Source: a virus. From it: a stretch of DNA of 31,791 bases. The stretch lies in UHGV virus genome UHGV-1970909; one strand, 5' to 3'. Position 1 is the first letter of the stretch, and each line of letters begins with the position of its first letter. The position numbers and the translations under genes are program-made. The notes beneath the pieces were generated by a model. The model saw only the letters and a list, made by a program, of their open reading frames with translations. It was not told the origin of the DNA and searched no databases. Shown piece by piece: positions 1 through 31,791 of the stretch.

Positions 1-1
1 C

Positions 2-55
2 TACCTGCGTGAGCGTACTGGTAAGGCTGCTCGTATCAAAGAGCGTCTTAACTAA
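2..55 (+). CDS. 3' end of a host protein-coding gene (partial; C-terminus ...YLRERTGKAARIKERLN, stop TAA 53-55); identity not recognised
   Basis: Frame-2 open reading frame enters from the window start and ends at TAA 53-55; its last 14 nt are the att core duplicated at the other prophage end; a hairpin terminator follows. Confidence 0.4.
   Translation, partial: YLRERTGKAARIKERLN
42..55. repeat. Left att core copy (AGCGTCTTAACTAA), identical to 31737-31750
   Basis: Exact 14-bp direct repeat (17 bp with one mismatch) at both prophage ends; the left copy forms the last codons and stop of the host ORF. Confidence 0.55.
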
Positions 56-93
56 TACAGCGCTTTCGCAACATCCGAAAGCTTGTAGAAAAC

Positions 94-217: not shown

Positions 218-436
218 TTAAAGCCAGAGTTGATGTTGCTGATATCTGGTGGGGTGGGGCGGTGCCGGTTCAATTTCACCTGGTTTAACGATGAAGCGGG
301 CGAGGGTCTCATGAGTTACAAAAGTGCATCCACAGTTGATGTTTTGGCATTGATGGTAACGTTCTTTTGTTTCAGAGCTTAAGTACCGGCTTGACCGTGC
401 ATGGGCTGCATCCTGACATAACGGACAATGCATCAT
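218..436 (-). CDS. ogr: Ogr-type zinc-finger late-gene transcription activator (72 aa)
   Basis: Translation MMHCPLCQDAAHARSSRY...KERYHQCQNINCGCTF has the C-x2-C...C-x4-C arrangement and strongly resembles the P2 Ogr sequence as I recall it; located at the end of the tail operon as in P2. Confidence 0.92.
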   Translation of the reverse strand: MMHCPLCQDAAHARSSRYLSSETKERYHQCQNINCGCTFVTHETLARFIVKPGEIEPAPPHPTRYQQHQLWL

Positions 437-513: not shown

Positions 514-1677
514 TTAATCCTCATCTTCTTCATACTCAACATCTGTAATTTTGACTTCCAACTCTAAGCCCGTCGTGAAGCCACTCCCGTTAAGGCTATG
601 CACCACACGGCTGACTATCCATGCTTGCTCGTCTATAACGCGCTTAAAGCCCTTCACCGCAACCGGTGTTTCAGGAAATAAATCAGCGCGGCCAGTGGCG
701 AGCGTAATCGAAAATTCCGCCACCCCTCGCTGTATCCTGTCCCACTTCGCCTGAGCTGCGCGCATGGCCTGCACCTTTGTCGCGTAGATGGTCGTGAGTT
801 CCAGAACATTGTCGGACTCACCGGCCATATACTCACCTTCCCGCGCTTCCTGCTCCTTTTTCTTTTTAGCCTTTGCCGATGTTTTGGCGGCCTTCGGGTG
901 CTGCAACGCACGCAGGTGCTGCTCTTTGGGTTTGCGTTTGAGCTTCACCTTTTGCTTTTGCGGTTTTGGGTCTCTGGTGTGCAGCCATTTAGCCGTGACG
1001 CCGGTGTATGCCTCGCGGTCGGCAATGGAAAACTGATGTCGGTCGCCGTCACCGCGCTCGACCGTCATTTGTGGGACAGGCTTGCCACTGGCCGTCATCG
1101 CGCTACCGGCTTTCAGGAATAACAATTTCCCGGCTTTGACCGAAACCGTTGCCCCGTTACGATCCGCCAGCCGGGACAAAAACGCCGCGTCGGATTCCTG
1201 AGACTGGTCGATATGCGGTACAGCAACAGATTTCAGGGTGTCAGCCACGCTGGCCGTCAGTTTGTTACGCTGCGCGATAGCCTCAACAATCACCCCGAGC
1301 CTGGTGTCGTGCCATGACTGTTCCCGGCGCGAGTTCAGCGTCCCGCGAAAATCCGCGCTGCGTCCCCGAATGGTCAGCCTGTCAGGCGCGCCCCGGTGCT
1401 CGATTTCGTCGACCGTGAAACTCCCTTTGTTTATCAGCGCGGAGCCCTGCCAGCCCAGCCACAGTGTCAGCGACGCCCCGCGCGGTGGTAGCTCAACCAG
1501 CCCGTCAGTATCATCAAGCTCAATATCGAGTTGATCAGCCTCAAATCCGCGATTGTCGGTCATGGTCAGCCCGATAAGCCGGTCGCTGAAATTCTGTGTG
1601 ATATCTGCGCCATTGAGCGTGAGCATAAAGCCAGGGGCGATGCACGCACCGGCCTGAATATTCATTCCCGTTATCAT
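514..1677 (-). CDS. D: Tail protein gpD (late control gene D family), 387 aa
   Basis: Position between U and ogr and length match P2 gpD; 4-nt overlap with the upstream gene; basic lysine-rich linker as in gpD homologues. Confidence 0.9.
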   Translation of the reverse strand: MITGMNIQAGACIAPGFMLTLNGADITQNFSDRLIGLTMTDNRGFEADQLDIELDDTDGLVELPPRGASLTLWLGWQGSALINKGSFTVDEIEHRGAPDRLTIRGRSADFRGTLNSRREQSWHDTRLGVIVEAIAQRNKLTASVADTLKSVAVPHIDQSQESDAAFLSRLADRNGATVSVKAGKLLFLKAGSAMTASGKPVPQMTVERGDGDRHQFSIADREAYTGVTAKWLHTRDPKPQKQKVKLKRKPKEQHLRALQHPKAAKTSAKAKKKKEQEAREGEYMAGESDNVLELTTIYATKVQAMRAAQAKWDRIQRGVAEFSITLATGRADLFPETPVAVKGFKRVIDEQAWIVSRVVHSLNGSGFTTGLELEVKITDVEYEEDED

Positions 1678-8271: not shown

Positions 8272-9965
8272 CAGGCAAGCCTCACGATATAGTTGAATGC
8301 GATGTTTTTGACGGTGTTTTCAGCGTTACCGGCTGCATTAACAGTGATGTTATGTCCGTGAGCCCCTATTGCCACAGTATGACTGTGTGCACCAATACCG
8401 ACATTATGGTTGTGGGCTCCGATGGCTACGGTATGGGCGTGAGCTCCGGCAGAACCTGTTGCCGTGGACGTATATTGAGTTGCCAGGCGTCCGGATGTTA
8501 GCGGCACTTTTCCGCCCTGGTTAGCACCATCTGACGTGGGTATCGGATGCGTGTGCGCCCCTGTGTTATTGGTGGTTTTCGTCCCGTAATCAAAGGTCGT
8601 GGTGGTTTTCGTTCCGTGGTCAAAAGCACTGGTGGTTTTCGTCCCTAAATCGGTGCTCGATGCGCTGGCACCGTGGGCGTGCGATTTAATCCCATCCTGC
8701 TCCTGAGACAAAATTGCGCGCCCACTTGCGGGTTTACCTTTGATTGTCCAGCCCCGCATATCAGGAATAACTCCCGACGGATACACCACAGCAAGCAGCG
8801 GATACGCGGCTTTATCAAAAGTTTGTCCCTGCATGACGGCATAGCCAGCGGGAACACTGTCAGACGGCCACGCAACGGGAGCGCCTACCGGAAAAACATC
8901 ATCAGGCGTCCACGGTGTCCATGCGCCTGTTGAATACTGGCTGCGCGAGTAGCTCCGGGAGCTGTTATAAACCCGGTATACCTGAGTCACTCCGGCATTT
9001 TTATAAATGACCAGCGTCCCGGCGTTATTTTCAGGGTAATGTCTGGCGGCTGAGGTATTGGCGTTCGCTGGCTGAAAGTAAATACCCGGCGTTTTAAGGG
9101 TGTCTAAATCCTCCGTTACCAGCCCAATAGCCTGACCGTCGAAAATATCCTTCGAGGTGACACTGGTGTCAGCATTCAGGGAATGTCCGTTAATTTTACG
9201 CGTGGAGGGAACGCGGCCATTAGCATTATCATTCGCCACTTTGACCGCTTTCGGTGTCGCAGCAAGCACCTCAGACACGCTGTCGGTGGCGCTACTGAGC
9301 TGGACAATCCCCTTCTGTGCCGTGGTCGCGTCCTGAGCCGTATATTTACCTTTCGCAAGGTCATACGCCACCTTGACCGCTTTCGGCGTTGCGGCGAGCG
9401 CCTCAGACGTGCTGTCGGTCGCACTGCTTAACTGCGTGAACCCTTTTTCTTTCAGCGTGGCGTCAGGATGGCGACGGGACTGCTCATGCTCTGCGAGTTT
9501 ATCGTCGACATAATCCTGCGTCGCCATCACCAGTGTCGTATCGATGGACAGCTCGACGGTGTCGATATCGCTCACCATGATCACCATGCGCAGCGTCTGT
9601 GCGCGGCCTGACCCTTCCGCCAGTTCGGGCTTATAACTTTCGGCCATATTGCCGACCGCAATCAGCGTGCCGGTGTCATCGTAAAGCCCCATTTCACGCA
9701 GCCAGAAACCGCCGGTCTCCGGGGGGATCACCAGCTCCGCCACGACATAATTTTTATGTTTTTTGTCCAGGCTGATTTTGTTCAGCGCATGGCGCCAGAC
9801 CTCATTGACGAGTTTTGTCTGACTGGCGTCTGGTTCGGGCAGCTTACCGCCACCGTCCCCGACGGCCATCACCGCAAAATTGACTTTTTTCCCGTTCGGG
9901 AGCGTCGCCGCCGCCAGTTTTTCCGCACCGGCTCGGGTGATAACGGTTTTATATTTCACTGTCAT
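8271..9965 (-). CDS. H: Tail fibre protein gpH, 564 aa, with internal repeats and a His-rich C-terminal tip
   Basis: N-terminus [40 protein letters not shown] is typical of P2-family H; duplicated [22 protein letters not shown] segment; C-terminal HGTKTT and GAHxH repeats. Confidence 0.9.
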
Positions 9966-23194: not shown

Positions 23195-24460
23195 ATGAAT
23201 ATAATGAAATGTTTTGAATGCGAAACCTGTGGTACACACATTGATTGTAGAATAGGACTTTCAAATCGAGATGTGCAGCCTTTTCAGTTTGCTTGTCCTG
23301 AATGTGAAGAAAAAATTACTTTTAATATTTTGGGTGAAGACTTCAACCTAGAAGGGGCCATTGATCTTGTTGATTTTGAGGCACCATTTACGGGGGGTAA
23401 TCATTTCATAGATTTACACTTGGATTTTCCCGCCTCATTTGAAAAATATGAAATGGGATTTACTCCATTCATGCGAGCTGCTCAGGAAATCGGTCATGAG
23501 AACTATCAGCATCTTAATGAGAGACTGAATGCTCTTAACTACTTATACCCTAAAAAGAGAGAGTTAAGACGCTTAATAACTCAGTATAAACGAGGCGAAG
23601 TAAATACATTTCGAAAAACCTGCAATAAGCTTCTTGGTATACAATTAAAATCTAATAAGAAACAAGATATATTAGCCGCTTTGTATACAGCAACATCCAT
23701 AATGTCTTCACCTTTTACCATACATCAACATAATGAAGAAATAAGCACTAAAATGCCTGATTTATTACGTTCGCTTGATTACACTCACAAAATAAAAACA
23801 AGGGCGTTTTTTGAACAGTTAATTAAAACTGGTTTCTTACGAAATGTACACCATGAATGCCTATCCTTGTACCCAAAAATCGTAGAATTAGACCTACCAT
23901 TAAGGCCAGCCCTTTATTTTGACTACAAGCAATTAAATGAAGGGGATAAAATTTCAGGGCGGGTTTCAACTGCTGACTTTGATAGTTGCAGTAATTTATA
24001 TAAGGATCTATCTGAAGTCTTTTCGCGATTATTAACATTAGTTGCGGGGCTTAATAATCTGCTAAAACGTGGAGATTATGATCTGTTTGATGATTCAGTT
24101 CGTTTAAATAAAAAACAAGAATTAATTAAAGAACTTGCATCTTTAAATAATTTTACCAATATGGATTTAGGTAAAAAAATAGAGTGTATTGATGATTCAT
24201 TTTATTACATCGACAAGAGTGCAATTAATCACAAGTTACGAAATGCAATTGCCCATTATAAATATGAGTACGAAGAATCTACACAAATGATTTTCTATTA
24301 CCCAAATAGAGAAGGAATGAGCAGAGAGAACATGTATGAAATTTCATTTCTTGAATTTCTTAGATATTCTTTGATGCTTTTTCGTGAGGTTCATTCATTG
24401 AATCACATTGTTAAATCATTGTTTTTTTACACTGTGCTTGTTTTAAAGAAGGACATTTAA
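23195..24460 (+). CDS. Cargo gene: N-terminal zinc-ribbon + C-terminal HEPN-like (R-x4-H) domain protein, 421 aa; candidate abortive-infection RNase
   Basis: AT-rich ORF with a strong AAGGAG Shine-Dalgarno; N-terminus CFECETCGTH...ACPECEEK (C-x2-C...C-x2-C); C-terminal motif HKLRNAIAHYKYEY (R349-N-x3-H354, nt 24239-24256); sits between cos and A, where P2 carries tin/old. Confidence 0.75.
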   Translation: MNIMKCFECETCGTHIDCRIGLSNRDVQPFQFACPECEEKITFNILGEDFNLEGAIDLVDFEAPFTGGNHFIDLHLDFPASFEKYEMGFTPFMRAAQEIGHENYQHLNERLNALNYLYPKKRELRRLITQYKRGEVNTFRKTCNKLLGIQLKSNKKQDILAALYTATSIMSSPFTIHQHNEEISTKMPDLLRSLDYTHKIKTRAFFEQLIKTGFLRNVHHECLSLYPKIVELDLPLRPALYFDYKQLNEGDKISGRVSTADFDSCSNLYKDLSEVFSRLLTLVAGLNNLLKRGDYDLFDDSVRLNKKQELIKELASLNNFTNMDLGKKIECIDDSFYYIDKSAINHKLRNAIAHYKYEYEESTQMIFYYPNREGMSRENMYEISFLEFLRYSLMLFREVHSLNHIVKSLFFYTVLVLKKDI

Positions 24461-24568: not shown

Positions 24569-24751
24569 CTACTCAGTCTTATAAAAAATATCATCTTCGG
24601 TTTCATTATTTTCGCTGTTTGCTAGATCAGCAATGAGAGTGAGCGCAAGCTTTAAATCTGCAGGCTTGCAGTTTGCAATCAGAGATACCTCGGCAATGAA
24701 TTGCACACAAGCCCACTTTTGCTGCGTTCGGCTGAAATGTTCCCCAACCAT
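24569..24751 (-). CDS. Small SOS-regulated ORF (60 aa, acidic C-terminus); candidate Tum-like antirepressor
   Basis: ATG preceded by GGGAGAG; a strong LexA box and a TTGCCA -35 lie directly upstream; position (far end from the immunity region, near cos) matches the 186 tum arrangement, but the protein is shorter than 186 Tum (146 aa). Confidence 0.55.
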   Translation of the reverse strand: MVGEHFSRTQQKWACVQFIAEVSLIANCKPADLKLALTLIADLANSENNETEDDIFYKTE

Positions 24752-24771
24752 GAAATCTCTCCCAATATTTT

Positions 24772-24791
24772 GACTGTATATTTATACAGTA
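24772..24791. promoter_or_regulatory. LexA (SOS) box GACTGTATATTTATACAGTA overlapping the -10 region of the small-ORF promoter
   Basis: CTGT-N8(AT-rich)-ACAG palindrome closely matching the consensus TACTGTATATATATACAGTA; minus strand shows TTGCCA -35 about 17 nt upstream of a TATAAA/TAAATA -10 inside the box. Confidence 0.7.
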
Positions 24792-24865: not shown

Positions 24866-27088
24866 TTAGTCACCTATTAGCTTTGATGTTTCTGCCAATG
24901 CTGCAACACGATTGAGGATTTCCCTGGCCTTAGCCTGGCGTGATGGTGAGGTGGAAAATATCTCCCCTTTAGATGTTCCCTTGAGCCATTTTCCATCGAA
25001 ACAGCTTTTACCACCGGCCATAAGATGCAGGGCTTCACCCCGGCTGATGTTGATGCCGGTTGTCAGATGGATCTCGTCGATAGTCTTCTCTATCGCGGCG
25101 TTTTGCTCATCCGTGCCGTGGATAAATTTCTCCCTTTTTGGTGGCTTTGGCTTCTTGAGTCGGTTCGTCAGCTCTCGCCTTTCACGTCTACTCAGAGGTT
25201 TTGATAAATCGAGTTCCGGCGGATCACTTTCGCTTCCCGTACAGTTATTGACAGAACTCCAAGGGACGGCGAAGCCGTCCTTAACGTCAACGGCCAAATC
25301 AACGGCACGCTTCGGTACAATTTTCCATTGCGTGAGCCGGGTTAAAATCGGGGTGCCAGCTCCGACAGCAGAATCGTATACACCACGAATGCAGACAGTT
25401 TCCTCACCATACTGGTTAATTTCGGTACGCGGTTCATAAAGCGTGCGCACCTGCAAATCATCGCGACGGACAAACGGACCGCCCTGCGCATTAACATAGC
25501 CAGCCCAATCACCGGCGTCGGCGGCATCATGGACAGCCGCAAACTCAACACTCAGACCGTGTGCGGTCTCGGTATCTGCAAGGCGACGCAATTCACGATA
25601 GACAGTAACCGGCGCACCGCCAATAAACTGAAACTGGCGTATATGCCAGCGAGCAGCCCATGCTGAAACAGCGGGAGCTGACTCTTTTAGCAGTTCGCCG
25701 CTTTCATCATCGGTTTCACCATCAAGAGCATAACCATCGATATTTTTCGAGATGTATTTCGCGACGTAGCCGGTTGCGCTGCCTTTCTCCGGATCAATGG
25801 CTTCTGCGTGGAAACGTGCTTTTTTGGCTTTATCGCTTTTGAGTTCGTGAAAATCTTCCTGCCATGCGTAGTCCCGAATAATGCCACGAACGGTATCGAC
25901 GTCCTCCGGGAGCATAAACATCAGCATATGCCAGTGAGGGCAACCGTCATGGTGAGGCTCTGCAACGCGGATCCCGAAAATACGAATGTCTTCACGGTGG
26001 AGTTTTGCGCGAATGCGTGCCCACAGGCCAGTGAGATAACATTGCGTATCGGATGGATTGGATCCACTCCATTTGGTGTTACGGTAGCCTGCCTTTGTCG
26101 TGGCGTGATATTTAGACGGTGCGGTCAGGGTGTAAAACTCACCAACATAACCGAGCTCATTGCAGATATTTTCAAACCCACGAATGCGGGTCATAAGCTC
26201 ACAGCGTCGAATCGCAGGGTTAGCGACTGAGCCATCGTATTTTTCAATCAGGCTGATACGGTTGCCGTCTTCGTCTTCAAGCTCCAGACCTTTGAGAAAT
26301 TCGCGCGTCCGGCGCTTCTGTTCACGCCAGTCTGTCACGCAGTGTTTACTCGCGTAGACATGTTTTTTCTTACTGACATTTCCGATTGCGATTTGCAGGT
26401 GTTCGCGCCACGCAGCCGCAACGCGACGCAGACGTCCACGCCACCATTTTTCCGAAAACATACGGGCAATTGCTGGAGCGACTTTATCCTGATCCCAATA
26501 TTTATCCCGCGACCGTTCCCACTCTGGTGGCATTATCCTGAATTGCTGAGTGATGAAACCAGCATGCATATACCAGGCATTTAATGTCTCCAGTTCACAC
26601 ATGTCAGAATCGTCAATGTTGACTAACTCTGCACGGATAAAATCGGCGATATCAGCAGCCAGCAGGTCGATGTCGGCGCGTGCCATATCCGGGAGTCGGT
26701 TGTATCTGGCGACTATGTTGACCATGCGAGACGCCAGATATTGCATAAGCTGGGTATCGAAATGACAACCGAAAACAGCGGCTGATACGTTGCTGTTAAT
26801 ACCGGTGCACTCGTATTTTTTTGCGACCAGTTCAAGACGCGGCAATGCCTTTTTGCAAAAGCTGATTAAAAAGGCATTGGCTCGTTGACTGCCCTGATTT
26901 TGCTCCAGCACAGCAGCGGTGCGATAAACATCAAAACGCACACATTCAGGCTGGAGAGAAAGCACCTTTCTCGCATGCAGCAAAGCCGCGAACATACGGT
27001 CACGGCGATACTGTTGGTCGTAGGTAAGATATGGACTGGTTATTGCCGACCGTGGAGCATTCCACGGAAAAGCGAATTGAACAGCCAA
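24866..27088 (-). CDS. A: Rolling-circle replication initiation protein gpA (HUH endonuclease), 740 aa
   Basis: Contains EPHHDGCPHWHMLMF (HUH-type motif) and GYVAKYISKNIDGYALDG (active-site tyrosine region) as in P2 A; six-frame start is TTG overlapping the upstream stop, so the true start is uncertain (first in-frame ATG is at residue 32). Confidence 0.9.
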   Translation of the reverse strand: MAVQFAFPWNAPRSAITSPYLTYDQQYRRDRMFAALLHARKVLSLQPECVRFDVYRTAAVLEQNQGSQRANAFLISFCKKALPRLELVAKKYECTGINSNVSAAVFGCHFDTQLMQYLASRMVNIVARYNRLPDMARADIDLLAADIADFIRAELVNIDDSDMCELETLNAWYMHAGFITQQFRIMPPEWERSRDKYWDQDKVAPAIARMFSEKWWRGRLRRVAAAWREHLQIAIGNVSKKKHVYASKHCVTDWREQKRRTREFLKGLELEDEDGNRISLIEKYDGSVANPAIRRCELMTRIRGFENICNELGYVGEFYTLTAPSKYHATTKAGYRNTKWSGSNPSDTQCYLTGLWARIRAKLHREDIRIFGIRVAEPHHDGCPHWHMLMFMLPEDVDTVRGIIRDYAWQEDFHELKSDKAKKARFHAEAIDPEKGSATGYVAKYISKNIDGYALDGETDDESGELLKESAPAVSAWAARWHIRQFQFIGGAPVTVYRELRRLADTETAHGLSVEFAAVHDAADAGDWAGYVNAQGGPFVRRDDLQVRTLYEPRTEINQYGEETVCIRGVYDSAVGAGTPILTRLTQWKIVPKRAVDLAVDVKDGFAVPWSSVNNCTGSESDPPELDLSKPLSRRERRELTNRLKKPKPPKREKFIHGTDEQNAAIEKTIDEIHLTTGINISRGEALHLMAGGKSCFDGKWLKGTSKGEIFSTSPSRQAKAREILNRVAALAETSKLIGD

Positions 27089-28029: not shown

Positions 28030-28539
28030 TCATACCAAACCGAATGTTGCGCCAATGCCGGTCATGGTGTCGACGACACTCGACATTGCCGGGTTAGCCT
28101 GGAGGCGAGCCTGTAACGCCAGCGCCGACAATGACAGCATGCGAATACCGGCGTTAACGCTTTCAACCATGTTGTGTTTACGAGCAGAGGACAGGCGTTC
28201 ATCAGATGCAGCACCGTTCGCCAGTTCGCCGAGTTCGCTCATTGCGCGCATGACATAGGACTGCAATTTATCTTTAGCCAACTCATTAACCGGCACACAA
28301 GGTAGACAATGGATCTGCGCCAGAAAGCCATCAACGAGGGTTGAGTCTTCGGTCAGATCAGTCAGCAGCCATAACTCAGGCGGTGTGAACTGGTGAGGCT
28401 GTTCCGGGTTAAGTTTGTTACGTAACGTCTGAACATTCATACCCGCACGCTCGGCCAGCTTCGCCATGTTGTGACGCTGCGCGAAAGCCCGGCACGCTTC
28501 GTCATAGTGGGGATGTTTGGAAATTTGAAAATCAAACAT
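28030..28539 (-). CDS. cII: CII-like transcriptional regulator (186 CII family), 169 aa
   Basis: Same length as 186 CII as I recall it; helix-turn-helix segment MAKLAERAGMNVQTLRNKL; position downstream of apl. Confidence 0.78.
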   Translation of the reverse strand: MFDFQISKHPHYDEACRAFAQRHNMAKLAERAGMNVQTLRNKLNPEQPHQFTPPELWLLTDLTEDSTLVDGFLAQIHCLPCVPVNELAKDKLQSYVMRAMSELGELANGAASDERLSSARKHNMVESVNAGIRMLSLSALALQARLQANPAMSSVVDTMTGIGATFGLV

Positions 28540-28574
28540 GTATTTTTCCTCGCTATCTTAAATAATCGAGTTGC

Positions 28575-28799
28575 TCAGGCTGCCACATAGCGGCAATTGA
28601 GACCCTGAGCCAAGAGTCGAGCACGGAAGGCAACCATATTGATACGCGCTGCACCACCGTCTTTTTTACGAGGCATCAGGAGGAGGTCTCCATCAGCAAC
28701 CATCTGTTTTACAGTACGAATGCAGTAGCCGTAGCATTCGGCAAATTCGTCATAAGTCATGAGATCAGCGCCGGGCGGGATTGCAATTTGTGGAGTCAT
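28575..28799 (-). CDS. apl: Apl/Cox-like excisionase and switch repressor, 74 aa
   Basis: Small HTH protein (MTYDEFAECYGYCIRTVKQMV) as first gene of the lytic operon, divergent from cI, as in 186 (Apl) and P2 (Cox). Confidence 0.72.
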   Translation of the reverse strand: MTPQIAIPPGADLMTYDEFAECYGYCIRTVKQMVADGDLLLMPRKKDGGAARINMVAFRARLLAQGLNCRYVAA

Positions 28800-28864
28800 A
28801 AGTAATCATCTCCGGTTATTAGTTGGTTTGGTGCATTGGCGTGCATTTTTAAATTCAAGTGAGA

Positions 28865-28892
28865 ATCTTATCTCGAAAATGCGAGATGTCAA
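28865..28892 (-). promoter_or_regulatory. Candidate lytic promoter pR (minus-strand -35 TTGACA, 16-bp spacer, -10 TAAGAT) with palindromic operator in the spacer
   Basis: Minus strand TTGACA (28887-28892) and TAAGAT (28865-28870); perfect inverted repeat ATCTCG-N6-CGAGAT (28870-28887) lies between them; about 60 bp upstream of apl. Confidence 0.5.
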
Positions 28893-28924
28893 TTTGGATT
28901 TTCGCGATAACTCGGATTTTTAAG

Positions 28925-29503
28925 ATGAAATTGGATGAGTTAGAGGGTGGAAAAGCAGTGCTGCAGCGCATCCTTGATGCGTATGGCTTCACCATGCAAA
29001 AACAACTCGGTGACCTGCATGAGCTGTCATCGGGAACAATTAGCACGTGGGTTAGGCGTAATTTTTTCCCCGGGGATGTTGTTGTTGCATGCGCTTTGGA
29101 TACTGGGGTGTCTTTACGTTGGTTGGCAACAGGGAAGGGGAACAAGTTTGATGCTGACCATACTAATGGCGAAATGAAAACATTAGACCGATTGGATATT
29201 GTTGCAGGTAAGCTGCAGGAAAACGGTCATTGGATTGTTGATGCTAATCTTTTTTCTACTGACGCGACGCACCCTAATTACATAGTAAAAGGCCAGCAGT
29301 CCTGGATAGTTGACTTCGATATGACTGATATAGCAAATGGCCGATGGATGCTCAGTATCGACGGGGATCATGATGTCTATGACGTTGCAAGGATCCCGGG
29401 GAACAGAATAAAAGTCAGCAACGCTGATGCCGATTTTCAATGCTCAGTTTCTGAGGTTAAGTGTATTGGCATGGTGCTGGTAAGCCTGACGAAATCTAGC
29501 TAA
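28925..29503 (+). CDS. cI: CI immunity repressor (186-CI-like), 192 aa
   Basis: Start at MKLDELEGGKAVLQRILDAYGF gives 192 aa, the 186 CI length as I recall it; N-terminal HTH; immediately upstream of int on the same strand. Confidence 0.85.
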   Translation: MKLDELEGGKAVLQRILDAYGFTMQKQLGDLHELSSGTISTWVRRNFFPGDVVVACALDTGVSLRWLATGKGNKFDADHTNGEMKTLDRLDIVAGKLQENGHWIVDANLFSTDATHPNYIVKGQQSWIVDFDMTDIANGRWMLSIDGDHDVYDVARIPGNRIKVSNADADFQCSVSEVKCIGMVLVSLTKSS

Positions 29504-29507
29504 TGAT

Positions 29508-30536
29508 ATGAGTGTTAAAAAACTGACATCGGGTGAATGGCTTTGTGATTTCCGCGTCGACGGGGCTGAAAGTCGCCGCGTGCGTAAGAAGTTTTCAACC
29601 AAAGGTGAAGCCCTTGCCTTCGAGCAGTATTACCGAGAAGAGGCACAAAATAAGCCGTGGATGGGTGAGAAGGAAGACCGTCGACGTTTGAGTGAACTGA
29701 TTGAGCTTTGGCATAACCTCCATGGTCAGTCGCTCGCTGCCAGCAAATCACGATTGGCCAAACTGCACATTGTTTGCCGAGGTCTTGGTGATCCGATAGC
29801 AACCCAGCTTACCGCTAAAGATTTTGCCCATTATCGTGATAAGCGCCTCAAGGGTGAAATCGACAATGGCTATCACGCGAATCCTGAAAAGTGGATTGCG
29901 AAACCCGTCACTGTGAACCGGGAGCAGCAGTACCTTGAGGCCGTTTTCAATGAGCTGAAACGCTTGGGGGAGTGGAGTTTGCCAAATCCTCTCGAAGGTG
30001 TGCGAGTTTTCAAAGAAGCCGAAAAAGAAATGTCCTGGCTTACCCAGCCTCAAATTCGCGAAGTGCTCAACGCGTGTGAATGCTACGGAAAAATTTACTT
30101 AACTCGCATCGTCAAAGTATGCCTTGCGACCGGTGCTCGATGGAGCGAGGCCGAACGCCTTACTCGTTCACAGCTTTCGCCCCATAAGTTGACTTTCACG
30201 AAAACGAAGGGAAAGAAGAATCGTACAGTACCGATCCCTCGCTGGCTGTATGACGAGTTGGCTCCTTTGCAGGGAAAAATGTTCCACCCCTGTTATCAGG
30301 AGTTCAAGAAAATGCTCGCACTGACCGATATTGTGTTGGCTGAAGGGCAGAAGACCCACGTGTTACGCCATACGTTTGCAAGCCATTTTATGATGAATGG
30401 GGGTAACATCTTGGTACTCCAACGGATTCTTGGTCACGCGAACATACGGGAGACGATGCGTTATGCTCACTTTGCACCGGATCATTTAGAGGAAGCTGCT
30501 CAATTGAATCCAATTGCAAAACTTATTACTCATTGA
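29508..30536 (+). CDS. int: Tyrosine integrase, 342 aa
   Basis: C-terminal catalytic signature ...THVLRHTFASHFMMNGGNILVLQRILGHANIRETMRYAHF (H-x-x-R ... Y); downstream of cI. Confidence 0.93.
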   Translation: MSVKKLTSGEWLCDFRVDGAESRRVRKKFSTKGEALAFEQYYREEAQNKPWMGEKEDRRRLSELIELWHNLHGQSLAASKSRLAKLHIVCRGLGDPIATQLTAKDFAHYRDKRLKGEIDNGYHANPEKWIAKPVTVNREQQYLEAVFNELKRLGEWSLPNPLEGVRVFKEAEKEMSWLTQPQIREVLNACECYGKIYLTRIVKVCLATGARWSEAERLTRSQLSPHKLTFTKTKGKKNRTVPIPRWLYDELAPLQGKMFHPCYQEFKKMLALTDIVLAEGQKTHVLRHTFASHFMMNGGNILVLQRILGHANIRETMRYAHFAPDHLEEAAQLNPIAKLITH

Positions 30537-30595: not shown

Positions 30596-31600
30596 ATGCC
30601 TACCAATCGTACTAGATACTCATTTTTAAGCCCAATGAGTATCAGTGATAGCGTCAGTGTTTTTTTTGCAGCCCTTGATTTTTTTTCAATCCCTGGACAG
30701 GACAAGGTTAGGAAAACTATAGCTATACCTCAAACCAATAATGGTATTCATCCTCTTCCTGCTGGTTCTTTCATGGATTATATTAAGGCGTTAAATATTT
30801 TGGCTGAGCCTGATCGCCACATGCAAAATATACGAAAGCTACTTAACAAAATGGAAGGTGTAGGTTTGTTAGTACCTATGGGGAACTCTGGGAGTGTATT
30901 TTTCCCAACCAATTATTACTTCTTGAAAGAATTAACTGAGAGAGAAAAGAAAGGTCGATTCTGGTTGTCTGAATGCTTGGGGCCTGAGTATGTGTACAAG
31001 TTTTTTGGTAATTTAATCATACATATCGTAGGCATGACATCAGATGGAGATGAACATGGAGGCACTGGAGTTATTATTAATGATAAACTGGTTTTGACAT
31101 GCAAGCATGTAATCGATGAAATGGTTATCAATGATACTCAATTTATTAATGGTAGTCAGATCAAAGTAGTCAACACGCATACACATAATGAAATTGATGT
31201 TGGAATTATTGAGTTCGAACCAAATAGCTTTATTGTAAATGGGAATGTGTGTTTTGATTCTCCGCACTTAAATGATGATATATATGTTTTAGGCTATCCA
31301 CCAATTCCATATTCAAAAGAAGTTGCGCCAATAATGCAGAAAGGTGAGATTACTAACCCTGAAATTACTACATTGGATAATCATACGGTTTTTCTTTTCT
31401 CTGCTATAGCTAGACCTGGTAATAGTGGAGGTCCAATTATTGCTAGGAATGGCAGGATCCTTGGGATAGTCACGAAAGAGCTATCACTTCAAGAAAGCAA
31501 TAACTTCCCGTTCTTTGCGGGGATTCCAACAAATGAAATAGTAACAGCCCTCTCTGATATGGGGTTTGGAGGGATACTTCCTGTCGAAAATTATCAGTAG
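30596..31600 (+). CDS. Cargo gene: two-domain protein with C-terminal trypsin/chymotrypsin-like serine protease (H171, D201, S277 in GNSGGP) and an unrecognised N-terminal domain, 334 aa
   Basis: AT-rich ORF with a perfect AAGGAG Shine-Dalgarno; motifs TCKHVI, EIDVGIIEF and ARPGNSGGPII in H-D-S order; no signal peptide evident; sits between int and the right integrase arm repeats. Confidence 0.75.
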   Translation: MPTNRTRYSFLSPMSISDSVSVFFAALDFFSIPGQDKVRKTIAIPQTNNGIHPLPAGSFMDYIKALNILAEPDRHMQNIRKLLNKMEGVGLLVPMGNSGSVFFPTNYYFLKELTEREKKGRFWLSECLGPEYVYKFFGNLIIHIVGMTSDGDEHGGTGVIINDKLVLTCKHVIDEMVINDTQFINGSQIKVVNTHTHNEIDVGIIEFEPNSFIVNGNVCFDSPHLNDDIYVLGYPPIPYSKEVAPIMQKGEITNPEITTLDNHTVFLFSAIARPGNSGGPIIARNGRILGIVTKELSLQESNNFPFFAGIPTNEIVTALSDMGFGGILPVENYQ

Positions 31601-31622: not shown

Positions 31623-31645
31623 ATGTCCACATTATGTCCACGCAG
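31623..31645. promoter_or_regulatory. Integrase arm-type binding sites (two direct copies of ATGTCCAC) at the right end
   Basis: ATGTCCAC at 31623-31630 and 31634-31641, same 8-mer and orientation as at 132-170; about 95 bp from the right att core. Confidence 0.5.
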
Positions 31646-31736
31646 CATGTTTTTGGTTGCACTTGATTGCACTGGAGATACATATAACTAACTGTTTGTA
31701 ATGAAAAATATATGTTTATCAATGGTGTTGGGTAAA

Positions 31737-31750
31737 AGCGTCTTAACTAA
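31737..31750. repeat. Right att core copy (AGCGTCTTAACTAA)
   Basis: Identical to 42-55; an in-frame TAA immediately upstream shows this copy is not preceded by the host ORF, consistent with phage-derived DNA to its left and host DNA to its right. Confidence 0.55.
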
Positions 31751-31791
31751 GATTTCGCTTAAGCGACATCCTGTTAAGAAGGGCTGGCCAA

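What the first reader, a model, noticed from the sequence alone, without database searches (positions are those of the whole stretch)
28781..28892. 186-style face-to-face lysis/lysogeny switch with palindromic operator
Between divergent apl (minus) and cI (plus) there is a strong minus-strand promoter (TTGACA-N16-TAAGAT) whose spacer is a perfect inverted repeat ATCTCG-N6-CGAGAT. A weaker plus-strand promoter candidate (TTGCAA at 28781-28786 with a poor -10 near 28803-28809) sits about 80 bp away inside the 5' end of apl, pointing toward cI. Convergent pR/pL with a CI length of 192 aa matches phage 186 rather than P2. A direct repeat GTGCATT x2 (about 28831-28846) could be a further site.
Basis: partly seen in the sequence, partly recalled or inferred. 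Interest (0 to 1): 0.45.

Follow-up and report, generated by a model that had tools for sequence, protein, structure and literature searches.

The report
Phage 186-type lysis–lysogeny switch, new immunity
This is the on/off control region of a complete 186-like prophage, with two facing promoters, a repressor-binding palindrome inside the lytic promoter and excisionase repeats between them; it is an ordinary example of a well-studied switch, but with a repressor/operator specificity found in no sequenced phage.

Summary
The window holds a complete 186-family (Eganvirus-like) prophage inserted at the 3' end of rplS.

- **Homology break.** DNA homology to phage 186 stops exactly at the cII start. 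The apl–cI–int module is a different immunity cassette: CI is 28% identical to 186 CI but has the same two Pfam domains and the same length.
- **pR** (TTGACA-16-TAAGAT, minus strand) carries the dyad ATCTCG-N6-CGAGAT in its spacer. This is where 186 carries its central CI operator, ATCTC-N8-GAGAT.
- **pL** (TTGCAA-17-AATCAT, plus strand) sits at the same offset from the apl start codon as 186 pL.
- **Comparative support.** Among 22 distinct relatives that share the promoter and Apl scaffold, 20 have a dyad abutting the -35. Its sequence changes with the CI type, with compensatory changes on both arms.
- **GTGCATT x2** is invariant across these heteroimmune relatives. The tandem recurs once more in the window, beside the Int arm sites near att, so it is best read as Apl (Cox-like excisionase/repressor) operators rather than a CI site.
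- **Not established.** The distal 186 features (FL, FR, CI control of pB) could not be shown.

Verdict: a new member of a known kind, of low to moderate interest.

The parts
28781..28786 (+). pL -35 hexamer TTGCAA, inside apl codons 5-6 (the QIAIP motif)
   Evidence: Lies 13-18 nt inside apl, the same offset as 186 pL -35 TTGCGA. Invariant in all 14 aligned relatives and in 28 unique switch regions. Coding constraint may add to this conservation.
28804..28809 (+). pL -10 hexamer AATCAT, 17-nt spacer
   Evidence: Same register as 186 pL -10 CATGAT. Relatives have GATCAT, GAACAT, GATTAT, GAATAT or GAGTAT, so positions A2, A5 and T6 are always kept.
28831..28847 (+). Two GTGCATT direct repeats 10 bp apart: candidate Apl (Cox-like RDF/repressor) operators in the stretch where pR and pL transcripts overlap
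   Evidence: GTGCATTGGCGTGCATTTTT is invariant in 14 relatives whose CI is 59-99% identical but whose Apl is 85-97% identical. The tandem occurs only twice in the window. PSP3 has GTGCAGTGGTGTGCAT at the same place.
28865..28870 (-). pR -10 hexamer TAAGAT
   Evidence: Promoter scan. Relatives keep a TAnnnT-type hexamer in this register.
28870..28887 (.). O1: immunity-specific CI operator, dyad ATCTCG-N6-CGAGAT filling the pR spacer
   Evidence: Same position and same ATCTC-N8-GAGAT arms as the central dyad of the annotated 186 CI site at pR. Arm positions 2, 5 and 6 change on both sides in relatives. 20 of 22 distinct relatives have a dyad with at least 5 of 6 arm matches here, against 27 of 242 control positions.
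28887..28892 (-). pR -35 hexamer TTGACA
   Evidence: Promoter scan. TGTCAA or TGTAAA is conserved in relatives.
28891..28908 (.). Candidate O2: imperfect inverted copy of O1 (minus strand ATCGCGAAAATCCAAATT), centre 21 bp from the O1 centre
   Evidence: 13-nt inverted repeat with 1 mismatch, 28868-28880 / 28898-28910, the longest in the region (I1). Relative L035 has a clear second operator copy 22 bp from the first. The sequence does not change with CI type, so the assignment is weak.
28925..29503 (+). cI, 192 aa, 186-type two-domain repressor
   Evidence: Pfam Phage_CI_repr 3e-24 and Phage_CI_C 5e-25. PDB 2FJR (186 CI) 3e-23. 28% identity to 186 CI over 174 aa. A 1-nt indel upstream of this ATG in L029 and L030 argues against the 205-aa PGAP start at 28886.
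28575..28799 (-). apl-like gene, 74 aa, first gene of the lytic operon
   Evidence: PHROG 575 'Cox-like excisionase and repressor', 4e-20. Weak similarity to 186 Apl, E = 1e-4. 36% identity to PSP3 gp30.
28030..28539 (-). cII, 169 aa
   Evidence: About 89% nucleotide identity to 186 cII, with homology ending at the cII start. Pfam Phage_CP76 2e-47.
28513..28572 (+). pE region: CII half-sites ATGTTTG (28513-28519) and CAAACAT (28533-28539), candidate -10 TATCTT (28554-28559), FR-like 18-mer ATCTTAAATAATCGAGTT (28555-28572)
   Evidence: The half-sites are identical to the annotated 186 CII site (I4, 6, 8). The FR-like site sits where 186 FR sits, but it is not palindromic here and does not follow CI type.
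31656..31672 (-). Second tandem GTGCAAT-N3-GTGCAAC, between the Int arm-type repeats (31623-31645) and the att core (31737-31750): candidate Apl sites for excision
   Evidence: The E. coli relative has GTGTA-N5-GTGCA at the same place. PSP3 attP has three TGCA repeats in 10-bp phase. 186 Apl likewise binds both between pR and pL and at attP (PMC7498355).
24569..24789 (-). LexA box CTGTATATTTATACAG (24774-24789) over a promoter for a 60-aa tumA-like ORF (24569-24751): probable SOS-induced antirepressor acting on CI
   Evidence: Only LexA-box match in the window. The ORF is 95% identical to PSP3 TumA. It occupies the same position downstream of gene A as 186 p95/tum but has no similarity to 186 Tum.

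Best explanation
This is the lysis-lysogeny switch of an intact 186-family prophage with its own immunity specificity.

Shown by sequence and comparison:
- A near-consensus lytic promoter pR on the minus strand drives apl-cII-fil and the downstream early genes.
- A weak lysogenic promoter pL on the plus strand, partly inside the 5' end of apl, drives cI-int.
- The two promoters face each other, with predicted start sites about 42 bp apart.
- The 18-bp dyad ATCTCG-N6-CGAGAT fills the pR spacer and touches both hexamers.
- Two 10-bp-phased GTGCATT repeats lie in the stretch transcribed from both promoters.

Inferred by analogy with 186:
- A CI dimer, probably as part of a higher oligomer, binds the dyad and occludes pR.
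- Silencing the strong pR relieves transcriptional interference on pL, so CI indirectly sustains its own synthesis.
- Apl, the first product of pR, binds the GTGCATT array cooperatively and damps both promoters. It also binds the similar array next to att to direct excision.
- CII activates pE at the conserved ATGTTTG/CAAACAT half-sites to establish lysogeny.
- SOS induction works through a LexA-controlled TumA-type antirepressor, not through CI cleavage.
For: - Gene order and homology. B, D ... A, cII, apl (minus), cI, int (plus), att. CI has both 186 CI domains and its best PDB hit is 186 CI. cII is 89% identical to 186 at the DNA level. The Apl-like protein falls in the Cox-like excisionase/repressor PHROG.
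- Positional equivalence with the annotated 186 switch. The pL -35 lies 13-18 nt inside apl with a 17-nt spacer. The dyad lies in the pR spacer with the same ATCTC-N8-GAGAT arms.
- The dyad is the most symmetric 18-nt window of the aligned non-coding region: 90% Watson-Crick over 10 distinct sequences, with three arm positions changed on both sides.
- 20 of 22 distinct relatives have a dyad with at least 5 of 6 arm matches abutting the -35, and 7 are perfect. At control offsets, 27 of 242 reach 5 and none reaches 6.
- The dyad type follows the CI type, not the Apl type. Apl is 85-97% identical and the GTGCATT repeats are invariant, while CI is 59-99% identical.
- The GTGCA-N5-GTGCA tandem occurs only at the switch and beside att. 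The same two-place arrangement is seen in PSP3.
- A LexA box precedes a TumA homologue.
- CI lacks an S24 peptidase domain.
Against: - There is no experimental data. No start sites or binding have been measured for this phage.
- pL matches only 8 of 12 consensus positions, and its -35 lies in conserved coding sequence, so its conservation is not independent evidence.
- Only two strong Apl-type repeats are present. 186 Apl needs at least three adjacent sites in vitro (PMC7498355).
- Compensatory arm changes would equally preserve an RNA hairpin in the pL/pE transcript, predicted at -6 to -8 kcal/mol.
- The 186 hallmarks of three pR operators, FL/FR distal sites and pB operators could not be shown. 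Candidate O2, O3, FR-like and pB sites do not change with CI type, and no FL was found.
Confidence: 0.85

Rival explanations
1. The palindrome acts mainly as an RNA hairpin in the leader of the cI mRNA (pL and pE transcripts read through it), affecting stability or translation rather than serving as a protein operator.
For: The plus-strand RNA folds into the 6-7 bp hairpin at -7.4 kcal/mol, and relatives fold at -6.9 and -8.0 kcal/mol with z-scores of -2.2 and -2.8. Double-sided arm changes preserve a stem as well as a dyad. Three of the five single-sided variants would be G-U pairs on the plus strand.
Against: The element sits exactly between the -35 and -10 of pR in all relatives. The equivalent 186 dyad lies within the annotated CI binding region and locus of vir mutations. 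The stems are short and often AT-rich, with no U-tract. For the window the z-score is only -1.35. The sequence type follows the CI helix-turn-helix type, which an RNA stem would not require.
Confidence: 0.06
2. The dyad is bound by a protein other than CI, such as the Apl-like HTH protein or a host factor, and CI acts elsewhere.
For: No binding data exist. Apl/Cox proteins in P2-like phages do repress the early promoters (PMC7498355).
Against: Apl is nearly constant (85-97%) among relatives in which the dyad takes at least three different sequences. CI differs among those relatives, including V43I and N46D in the helix that aligns with the 186 recognition helix. RDFs of this class bind direct repeats, not dyads (PMC7498355).
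Confidence: 0.03
3. The region is a decayed remnant: the motifs are inherited, but the prophage switch no longer works.
For: In one E. coli relative the replication gene A is annotated as a pseudogene with an internal stop.
Against: In the window all switch genes and gene A (740 aa) are intact ORFs. Both att cores and the Int arm repeats are present. The promoter hexamers, the dyad and the repeats carry no substitutions relative to the 97%-identical E. coli copies; the three intergenic differences fall outside them.
Confidence: 0.05

Closest known systems
Coliphage 186 pR-pL switch (CI / Apl / CII; Eganvirus ev186)
   Same: - Gene order int-cI / apl-cII-fil.
- CI of 192 aa with the same two domains.
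- Face-to-face pR and pL, with the pL -35 inside apl at the same offset.
- A dyad with ATCTC-N8-GAGAT arms in the pR spacer.
- CII half-sites and pE.
- 10-bp-phased direct repeats both between the promoters and at att.
- A LexA-controlled gene downstream of A.
   Different: - CI is only 28% identical and Apl about 30% (74 aa against 87 aa). DNA homology stops at the cII start.
- Predicted start sites are about 42 bp apart, not 62 bp.
- Two strong RDF repeats per site, against seven at the switch and five at att in 186.
- No demonstrable FL, FR or pB operators of a distinct A type.
- The antirepressor is TumA-type and unrelated in sequence to 186 Tum.
- Integration is at rplS, not at an Ile tRNA gene.
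Salmonella phage PSP3 (Eganvirus PsP3) immunity region
   Same: - Same att core (AGCGTCTTAACTAA, 3' end of rplS).
- TumA 95% identical.
- GTGCA tandem repeats at the switch and phased TGCA repeats at attP.
- The second HTH region of its CI is about 75% identical at the DNA level to the window's CI N-terminal domain.
- cII-like gene adjacent.
   Different: - PSP3 CI is 286 aa with two tandem HTH domains, and about 47% identical over the shared part.
- Its Apl analogue gp30 is 117 aa and 36% identical.
- Its pR spacer sequence is different.
- It keeps a perfect AACTTG-N6-CAAGTT palindrome between gp30 and cII, which is degenerate in the window.
Phage P2 Pe-Pc switch (C / Cox)
   Same: Convergent early and lysogenic promoters 40-60 bp apart. 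A Cox-like HTH protein encoded first in the lytic operon that doubles as excisionase.
   Different: P2 C is about half the size, cannot be aligned with CI and binds direct repeats. P2 has no cII or pE and no SOS antirepressor. The window has none of the P2-specific features.

Membership tests
186-type (CI/Apl/CII) switch of P2-like phages | Immunity repressor of the 186 CI type: N-terminal HTH domain plus C-terminal oligomerisation domain, about 190 aa | tested here: met
   Pfam PF07022 3e-24 and PF16452 5e-25. PDB 2FJR 3e-23 and 2FKD 2e-7. 192 aa.
186-type (CI/Apl/CII) switch of P2-like phages | Cox/Apl-like HTH protein as first gene of the lytic operon, opposite in orientation to cI | tested here: met
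   ORF 28575-28799 (-). PHROG 575 4e-20. BLASTP to 186 Apl E = 1e-4.
186-type (CI/Apl/CII) switch of P2-like phages | cII gene after apl, with a CII-dependent pE carrying inverted ATGTTTG half-sites two turns apart | tested here: met
   cII is 89% identical to 186 at the DNA level. Half-sites at 28513-28519 and 28533-28539 are identical to those of 186. Activity was not tested.
186-type (CI/Apl/CII) switch of P2-like phages | Face-to-face pR (strong) and pL (weak) with overlapping transcripts | tested here: met
   Met at the sequence level only. pR matches 10 of 12. pL is in the same register as 186 pL. Both are conserved in relatives. Start sites cannot be tested with these tools.
186-type (CI/Apl/CII) switch of P2-like phages | Dyad-symmetric CI operator overlapping pR | tested here: met
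   Dyad at 28870-28887. Compensatory changes on both arms and family-wide positional enrichment. Binding itself was not tested.
186-type (CI/Apl/CII) switch of P2-like phages | Three CI operators at pR spaced two helical turns apart | tested here: inconclusive
   One imperfect copy lies 21 bp away (28891-28908, I1), and a further weak match at 28909-28926. Neither changes with CI type. L035 shows a clear pair 22 bp apart.
186-type (CI/Apl/CII) switch of P2-like phages | Distal CI sites FL and FR about 300 bp either side, allowing looping on a CI wheel | tested here: inconclusive
   The FR-position 18-mer 28555-28572 matches only a degenerate pattern that was derived after the fact. No conserved dyad was found at the FL position.
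186-type (CI/Apl/CII) switch of P2-like phages | CI operators at the late-activator promoter pB | tested here: inconclusive
   AACTT-N8-AAGTT at 482-499 overlaps the pB -35. Its right arm is not conserved in relatives or in PSP3, and it does not follow CI type.
186-type (CI/Apl/CII) switch of P2-like phages | Apl operators as 10-11 bp phased direct repeats both between pR and pL and at att | tested here: met
   Exact GTGCA-N5-GTGCA at 28831-28845 and 31658-31672 only. Only two strong copies per place, against 7 and 5 in 186.
186-type (CI/Apl/CII) switch of P2-like phages | SOS induction through a LexA-repressed antirepressor rather than CI self-cleavage | tested here: met
   Met at the sequence level. 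LexA box at 24774-24789 upstream of an ORF 95% identical to PSP3 TumA. The ORF is not homologous to 186 Tum.
186-type (CI/Apl/CII) switch of P2-like phages | CI assembles into a 14-mer wheel that wraps DNA | not testable with these tools
   The only evidence is that the C-terminal domain is homologous to the 2FKD 14-mer domain, E = 2e-7.
P2-type (C/Cox) switch | Small (about 99 aa) C repressor binding direct repeats; no cII | tested here: not met
   The repressor is a 192-aa CI-type protein, a cII gene is present, and the operator is a dyad.

The most novel reading that the evidence does not exclude
This clade of 186/PSP3-like prophages keeps a fixed scaffold: pL, the Apl repeats and the pR hexamers. 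New immunities arise by exchanging only the 18-bp dyad in the pR spacer together with a few residues of the CI recognition helix. Between the window type (ATCTCG arms) and the 77% type (ACCTTA arms), the N-terminal domains differ at six positions. Two of these, V43I and N46D, align with helix 3 of 186 CI. These few substitutions may therefore be enough to retarget the repressor. In the same reading, the window's switch may work with one strong operator and no FL/FR looping, making it a minimal version of the 186 design.
Probability: 0.3. Interest if true: 0.4.

Novelty: new member of a known kind. Interest (0 to 1): 0.22.

Why it matters
The value is mostly for annotation and comparison.

- It fixes the regulatory map of a prophage type present in at least 13 complete E. 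coli genomes. There the Apl-like gene is labelled hypothetical, MerR family or QIAIP family, and CI is called 13 codons too long.
- It adds an immunity specificity that no deposited phage carries. The closest phage CI is about 50% identical.
- It provides a natural series of matched operator and repressor variants on a constant promoter scaffold. These could be used to read out the recognition code of 186-type CI, or to build orthogonal repressor/promoter pairs.
- It does not change how this class of switch is understood.

Tried and rejected
1. **Degenerate operator pattern.** AWCTY-N8-RAGWT, derived from four look-alike sites, hits only pB (482-499), the FR position (28555-28572), O1 and 28909-28926, against 0.4 expected. 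The pattern was built from those same sites, so the test is circular. In relatives the three extra sites do not change with the CI type. I therefore do not claim them as operators.

2. **O1-like matches.** Matches with up to 3 mismatches are at chance level across the window, 13 against 12 expected.

3. **FL.** The dyad TGCAG-N5-CTGCA at 29203-29217 inside cI lies at about the right distance but is not conserved in any relative.

4. **A site near the window's end.** 31752-31769 (ATTTCGCTTAAGCGACAT, 2 mismatches to O1) lies outside the prophage, beyond the att core, in host sequence that is also present in E. coli.

5. **Plus-strand promoter-like site.** 28708-28737 inside apl matches 9 of 12 and is at the chance level for the region.

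6. **Homology of the 60-aa LexA-controlled ORF to 186 Tum.** None was found.

7. **NCBIfam.** No model reached its curated cut-off for CI, Apl or the tumA-like ORF.

8. **GTGCATT as a single word.** It is not enriched in the window; only the phased tandem is.

Full report
**Observation**

- On the minus strand, TTGACA (28892-28887), 16 nt and TAAGAT (28870-28865). This is the only strong promoter-like hit in 28400-29100, matching 10 of 12 positions.
- The perfect inverted repeat ATCTCG (28870-28875) / CGAGAT (28882-28887) (I19).
- TTGCAA at 28781-28786 on the plus strand.
- GTGCATT at 28831-28837 and 28841-28847 (D4).
- An ORF from ATG 28925 to 29503 that gives 192 aa.

None of these is improbable alone. 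The scan found 2 promoter-like sites against 1.0 expected. The window has 19 perfect 6-N6-6 dyads. GTGCATT as a word is not enriched. The case rests on position and comparison.

**Context**

The window is a complete 186-family prophage in reverse orientation. The genes are:
- B/ogr-like, 218-436 (-)
- D, 514-1677 (-)
- replication gene A, 24866-27088 (-)
- cII, 28030-28539 (-)
- a 74-aa apl-like gene, 28575-28799 (-)
- cI, 28925-29503 (+)
- int, 29508-30536 (+)
- a trypsin-like cargo ORF, 30596-31600 (+)

A 14-nt att core, AGCGTCTTAACTAA, is repeated at 42-55 and 31737-31750. Int arm-type repeats (ATGTCCAC) lie inside both ends. Window 1-57 encodes the C-terminus of ribosomal protein L19, so the insertion is at the 3' end of rplS.

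Megablast to phages shows about 89% identity to 186 and its relatives across cII. That identity stops 2 nt beyond the cII start codon. The apl-cI part has no close DNA match in any deposited phage. The closest phage CI is about 50% identical. Thirteen complete E. coli genomes carry the same switch at 97% identity.

**The proteins are of the 186 type**

- CI matches both Pfam domains of 186 CI. Its best solved relative is 186 CI (2FJR, 3e-23). It aligns with 186 CI end to end at 28% identity.
- The apl-like protein belongs to the PHROG of Cox-like excisionase/repressors. It is weakly similar to 186 Apl.
- Int is 53% identical to 186 Int.

The literature distinguishes two switch types in P2-like phages, C/Cox and CI/Apl/CII, and both have converging promoters (PMC3448106; PMC7498355). 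The convergence itself therefore does not point to 186. The CI type and the presence of cII do.

**Promoters compared with the annotated 186 switch**

- In 186, the pL -35 (TTGCGA) lies 13-18 nt inside apl, followed by a 17-nt spacer and CATGAT. In the window, TTGCAA lies 13-18 nt inside apl, followed by a 17-nt spacer and AATCAT (28804-28809). Both match 8 of 12 consensus positions, as expected for a weak promoter.
- In 186, pR is TTTACT-17-TATATT and its spacer is filled by ATCTCTCAATTGGGAGAT. This dyad lies within the annotated CI-binding region and locus of vir mutations. In the window, the pR spacer is filled by ATCTCGAAAATGCGAGAT, which has the same ATCTC-N8-GAGAT arms.
- Using the 186 offsets, the predicted start sites are about 28856-28859 for pR and 28815-28817 for pL. 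They are about 42 bp apart, against 62 bp in 186.

**Comparative test of the dyad**

Loci encoding CI relatives were fetched from genome and viral contigs.

An alignment of 14 switch regions whose CI is 59-99% identical (A1) shows three things.
- The pL -35 is invariant.
- The pL -10 is always nAnnAT.
- The pR -35 is TGTCAA in 13 of 14.

The dyad occurs in three forms: ATCTCG...CGAGAT, ACCTTA...TAAGGT and ACCTCA...TGAGGT. Arm positions 2, 5 and 6 have changed on both sides. This 18-column window is the most symmetric of the whole non-coding alignment, at 90% Watson-Crick over 10 distinct sequences.

The comparison was then widened to 22 distinct pR cores that share the same Apl family.
- 20 have a dyad with at least 5 of 6 arm matches abutting the -35, and 7 are perfect.
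- These fall into at least eight sequence types, for example ATTGC-N8-GCAAT, ATCCCGC-N5-GCGGGAT and ATGCCGC-N5-GCGGCAT.
- At control offsets, 27 of 242 reach 5 and none reaches 6.

The dyad type follows the CI type.
- The window group differs from the ACCTYA groups at six N-terminal residues. Two of them, V43I and N46D, align with helix 3 of 186 CI; this placement is an inference from the alignment.
- L008 and L013 have near-identical recognition helices and near-identical dyads.

This is the pattern expected of an immunity-specific operator.

**The GTGCATT repeats**

GTGCATTGGCGTGCATTTTT is invariant in all 14 aligned relatives. It is nearly invariant in 28 unique switch regions, even though their CI operators differ. 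Apl in these loci is 85-97% identical.

The exact tandem GTGCA-N5-GTGCA occurs only twice in the window.
- At the switch, 28831-28845 (+).
- At 31658-31672 (-), between the Int arm repeats and the att core.

The expected number is 0.06, and 5 of 2000 shuffles reach 2.

The E. coli relative has GTGTA-N5-GTGCA at the same att position. PSP3 has GTGCAGTGGTGTGCAT at its switch and three TGCA repeats in 10-bp phase in attP. 186 Apl binds 10-11 bp phased direct repeats both between pR and pL and at attP (PMC7498355).

The repeats are therefore best read as Apl operators, not CI sites. One caveat is that only two strong copies are present, whereas 186 Apl needs three adjacent sites in vitro. The 77% relatives have a third, weaker copy, GTGTTAT, 10 bp upstream.

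**Other 186 features**

- The CII half-sites ATGTTTG and CAAACAT (28513-28519, 28533-28539) are identical to those of 186.
- A perfect LexA box (24774-24789) overlaps a promoter for a 60-aa ORF that is 95% identical to PSP3 TumA. It occupies the position that p95/tum occupies in 186, but is unrelated in sequence to 186 Tum.
- CI has no S24 peptidase domain, which fits induction by an antirepressor.

**What could not be shown**

186 has three pR operators two turns apart, distal FL and FR sites, and two operators at pB (PMC3675496).

- **O2.** The window has an imperfect inverted copy of the operator 21 bp away (28891-28908, I1). One relative, L035, shows an unmistakable operator pair 22 bp apart. 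However, the window's copy is conserved regardless of CI type.
- **Other look-alike sites.** These lie at the FR position (28555-28572), over the cI start (28909-28926) and at pB (482-499). They fit a degenerate pattern, but that pattern was built from those same sites. None of them follows the CI type.
- **FL.** No FL-like dyad is conserved.

These features remain open.

**Rivals**

- An RNA hairpin in the cI leader would also preserve the arm pairing. The predicted stems are -6 to -8 kcal/mol. Against this stand the fixed position between the promoter hexamers, the 186 precedent and the link to CI type.
- Binding by Apl is unlikely. Apl is nearly constant while the dyad varies, and proteins of this class bind direct repeats.
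- A decayed remnant is unlikely. All genes and sites are intact, and the three intergenic differences from the E. coli copies avoid every element.

**Verdict**

The region is a 186-type switch with a distinct immunity specificity, so it is a new member of a known kind. Interest is low to moderate. The most useful by-product is the natural series of operator and repressor variants on a constant scaffold.

Noticed in passing
L007 2477-3331; also L006, L008, L013 and others; PSP3 cI (L182 1419-2279): Many relatives of this CI, including phage PSP3, are 270-295 aa and carry two tandem N-terminal HTH (CI_repr-like) domains ahead of the C-terminal domain. The window's CI has one. In these phages the first HTH varies with the pR dyad type.
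   Followed up: partly
window 24569-24789: A perfect LexA box, CTGTATATTTATACAG, overlaps the -10 of a promoter for a 60-aa ORF that is 95% identical to PSP3 TumA. The ORF has no similarity to 186 Tum. It is probably an SOS-induced antirepressor of a family different from 186 Tum.
   Followed up: partly
window 23195-24460 (+): A 421-aa ORF of unknown function (phrog_13366; no Pfam or NCBIfam name) sits between the portal gene and the tumA-like gene. P2-like phages often carry accessory or defence cargo at this position.
   Followed up: no
window 30596-31600 (+): A trypsin-like serine peptidase ORF (Pfam Trypsin_2, 5e-16) lies between int and att. The 97%-identical E. coli prophages carry a different ORF in this slot.
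   Followed up: no
window 42-55 and 31737-31750; 132-154 and 31623-31645: These are the prophage boundaries. The att core AGCGTCTTAACTAA lies at the 3' end of rplS, and Int arm-type repeats ATGTCCAC lie inside both ends. PSP3 attP has the same core.
   Followed up: yes
L030 about 371 nt upstream of cI; L182 (PSP3) 2778-2795; window 28555-28572: A perfect palindrome AACTTG-N6-CAAGTT lies between apl and cII, over the pE -10/+1 region, in several relatives and in PSP3 despite their different CI types. In the window it has degenerated to ATCTTA-N6-CGAGTT. The protein that binds it is unknown. It occupies the position of 186 FR.
   Followed up: partly
window 28891-28902 and 28909-28920: A direct repeat, AATTTGGATTTT / AACTCGGATTTT, lies 18 bp apart just upstream of the pR -35 and before the cI start. 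The first copy is conserved in all 14 close relatives. It could be an UP element, a cI translation signal or weak CI sites.
   Followed up: no
window 28886 vs 28925: RefSeq/PGAP annotates the E. coli orthologue of cI from the ATG that corresponds to window position 28886, giving 205 aa. In the window that ATG is formed by the last two bases of the operator's right arm (CGAGAT) and the first G of GTCAA in the pR -35. It is absent in relatives, and it is out of frame in L029 and L030. The 192-aa start at 28925 is more likely.
   Followed up: yes
window 8570-8659 and 9217-9464: There are three tandem 30-nt repeats and a 116-nt direct repeat (72% identity) in the structural gene region.
   Followed up: no
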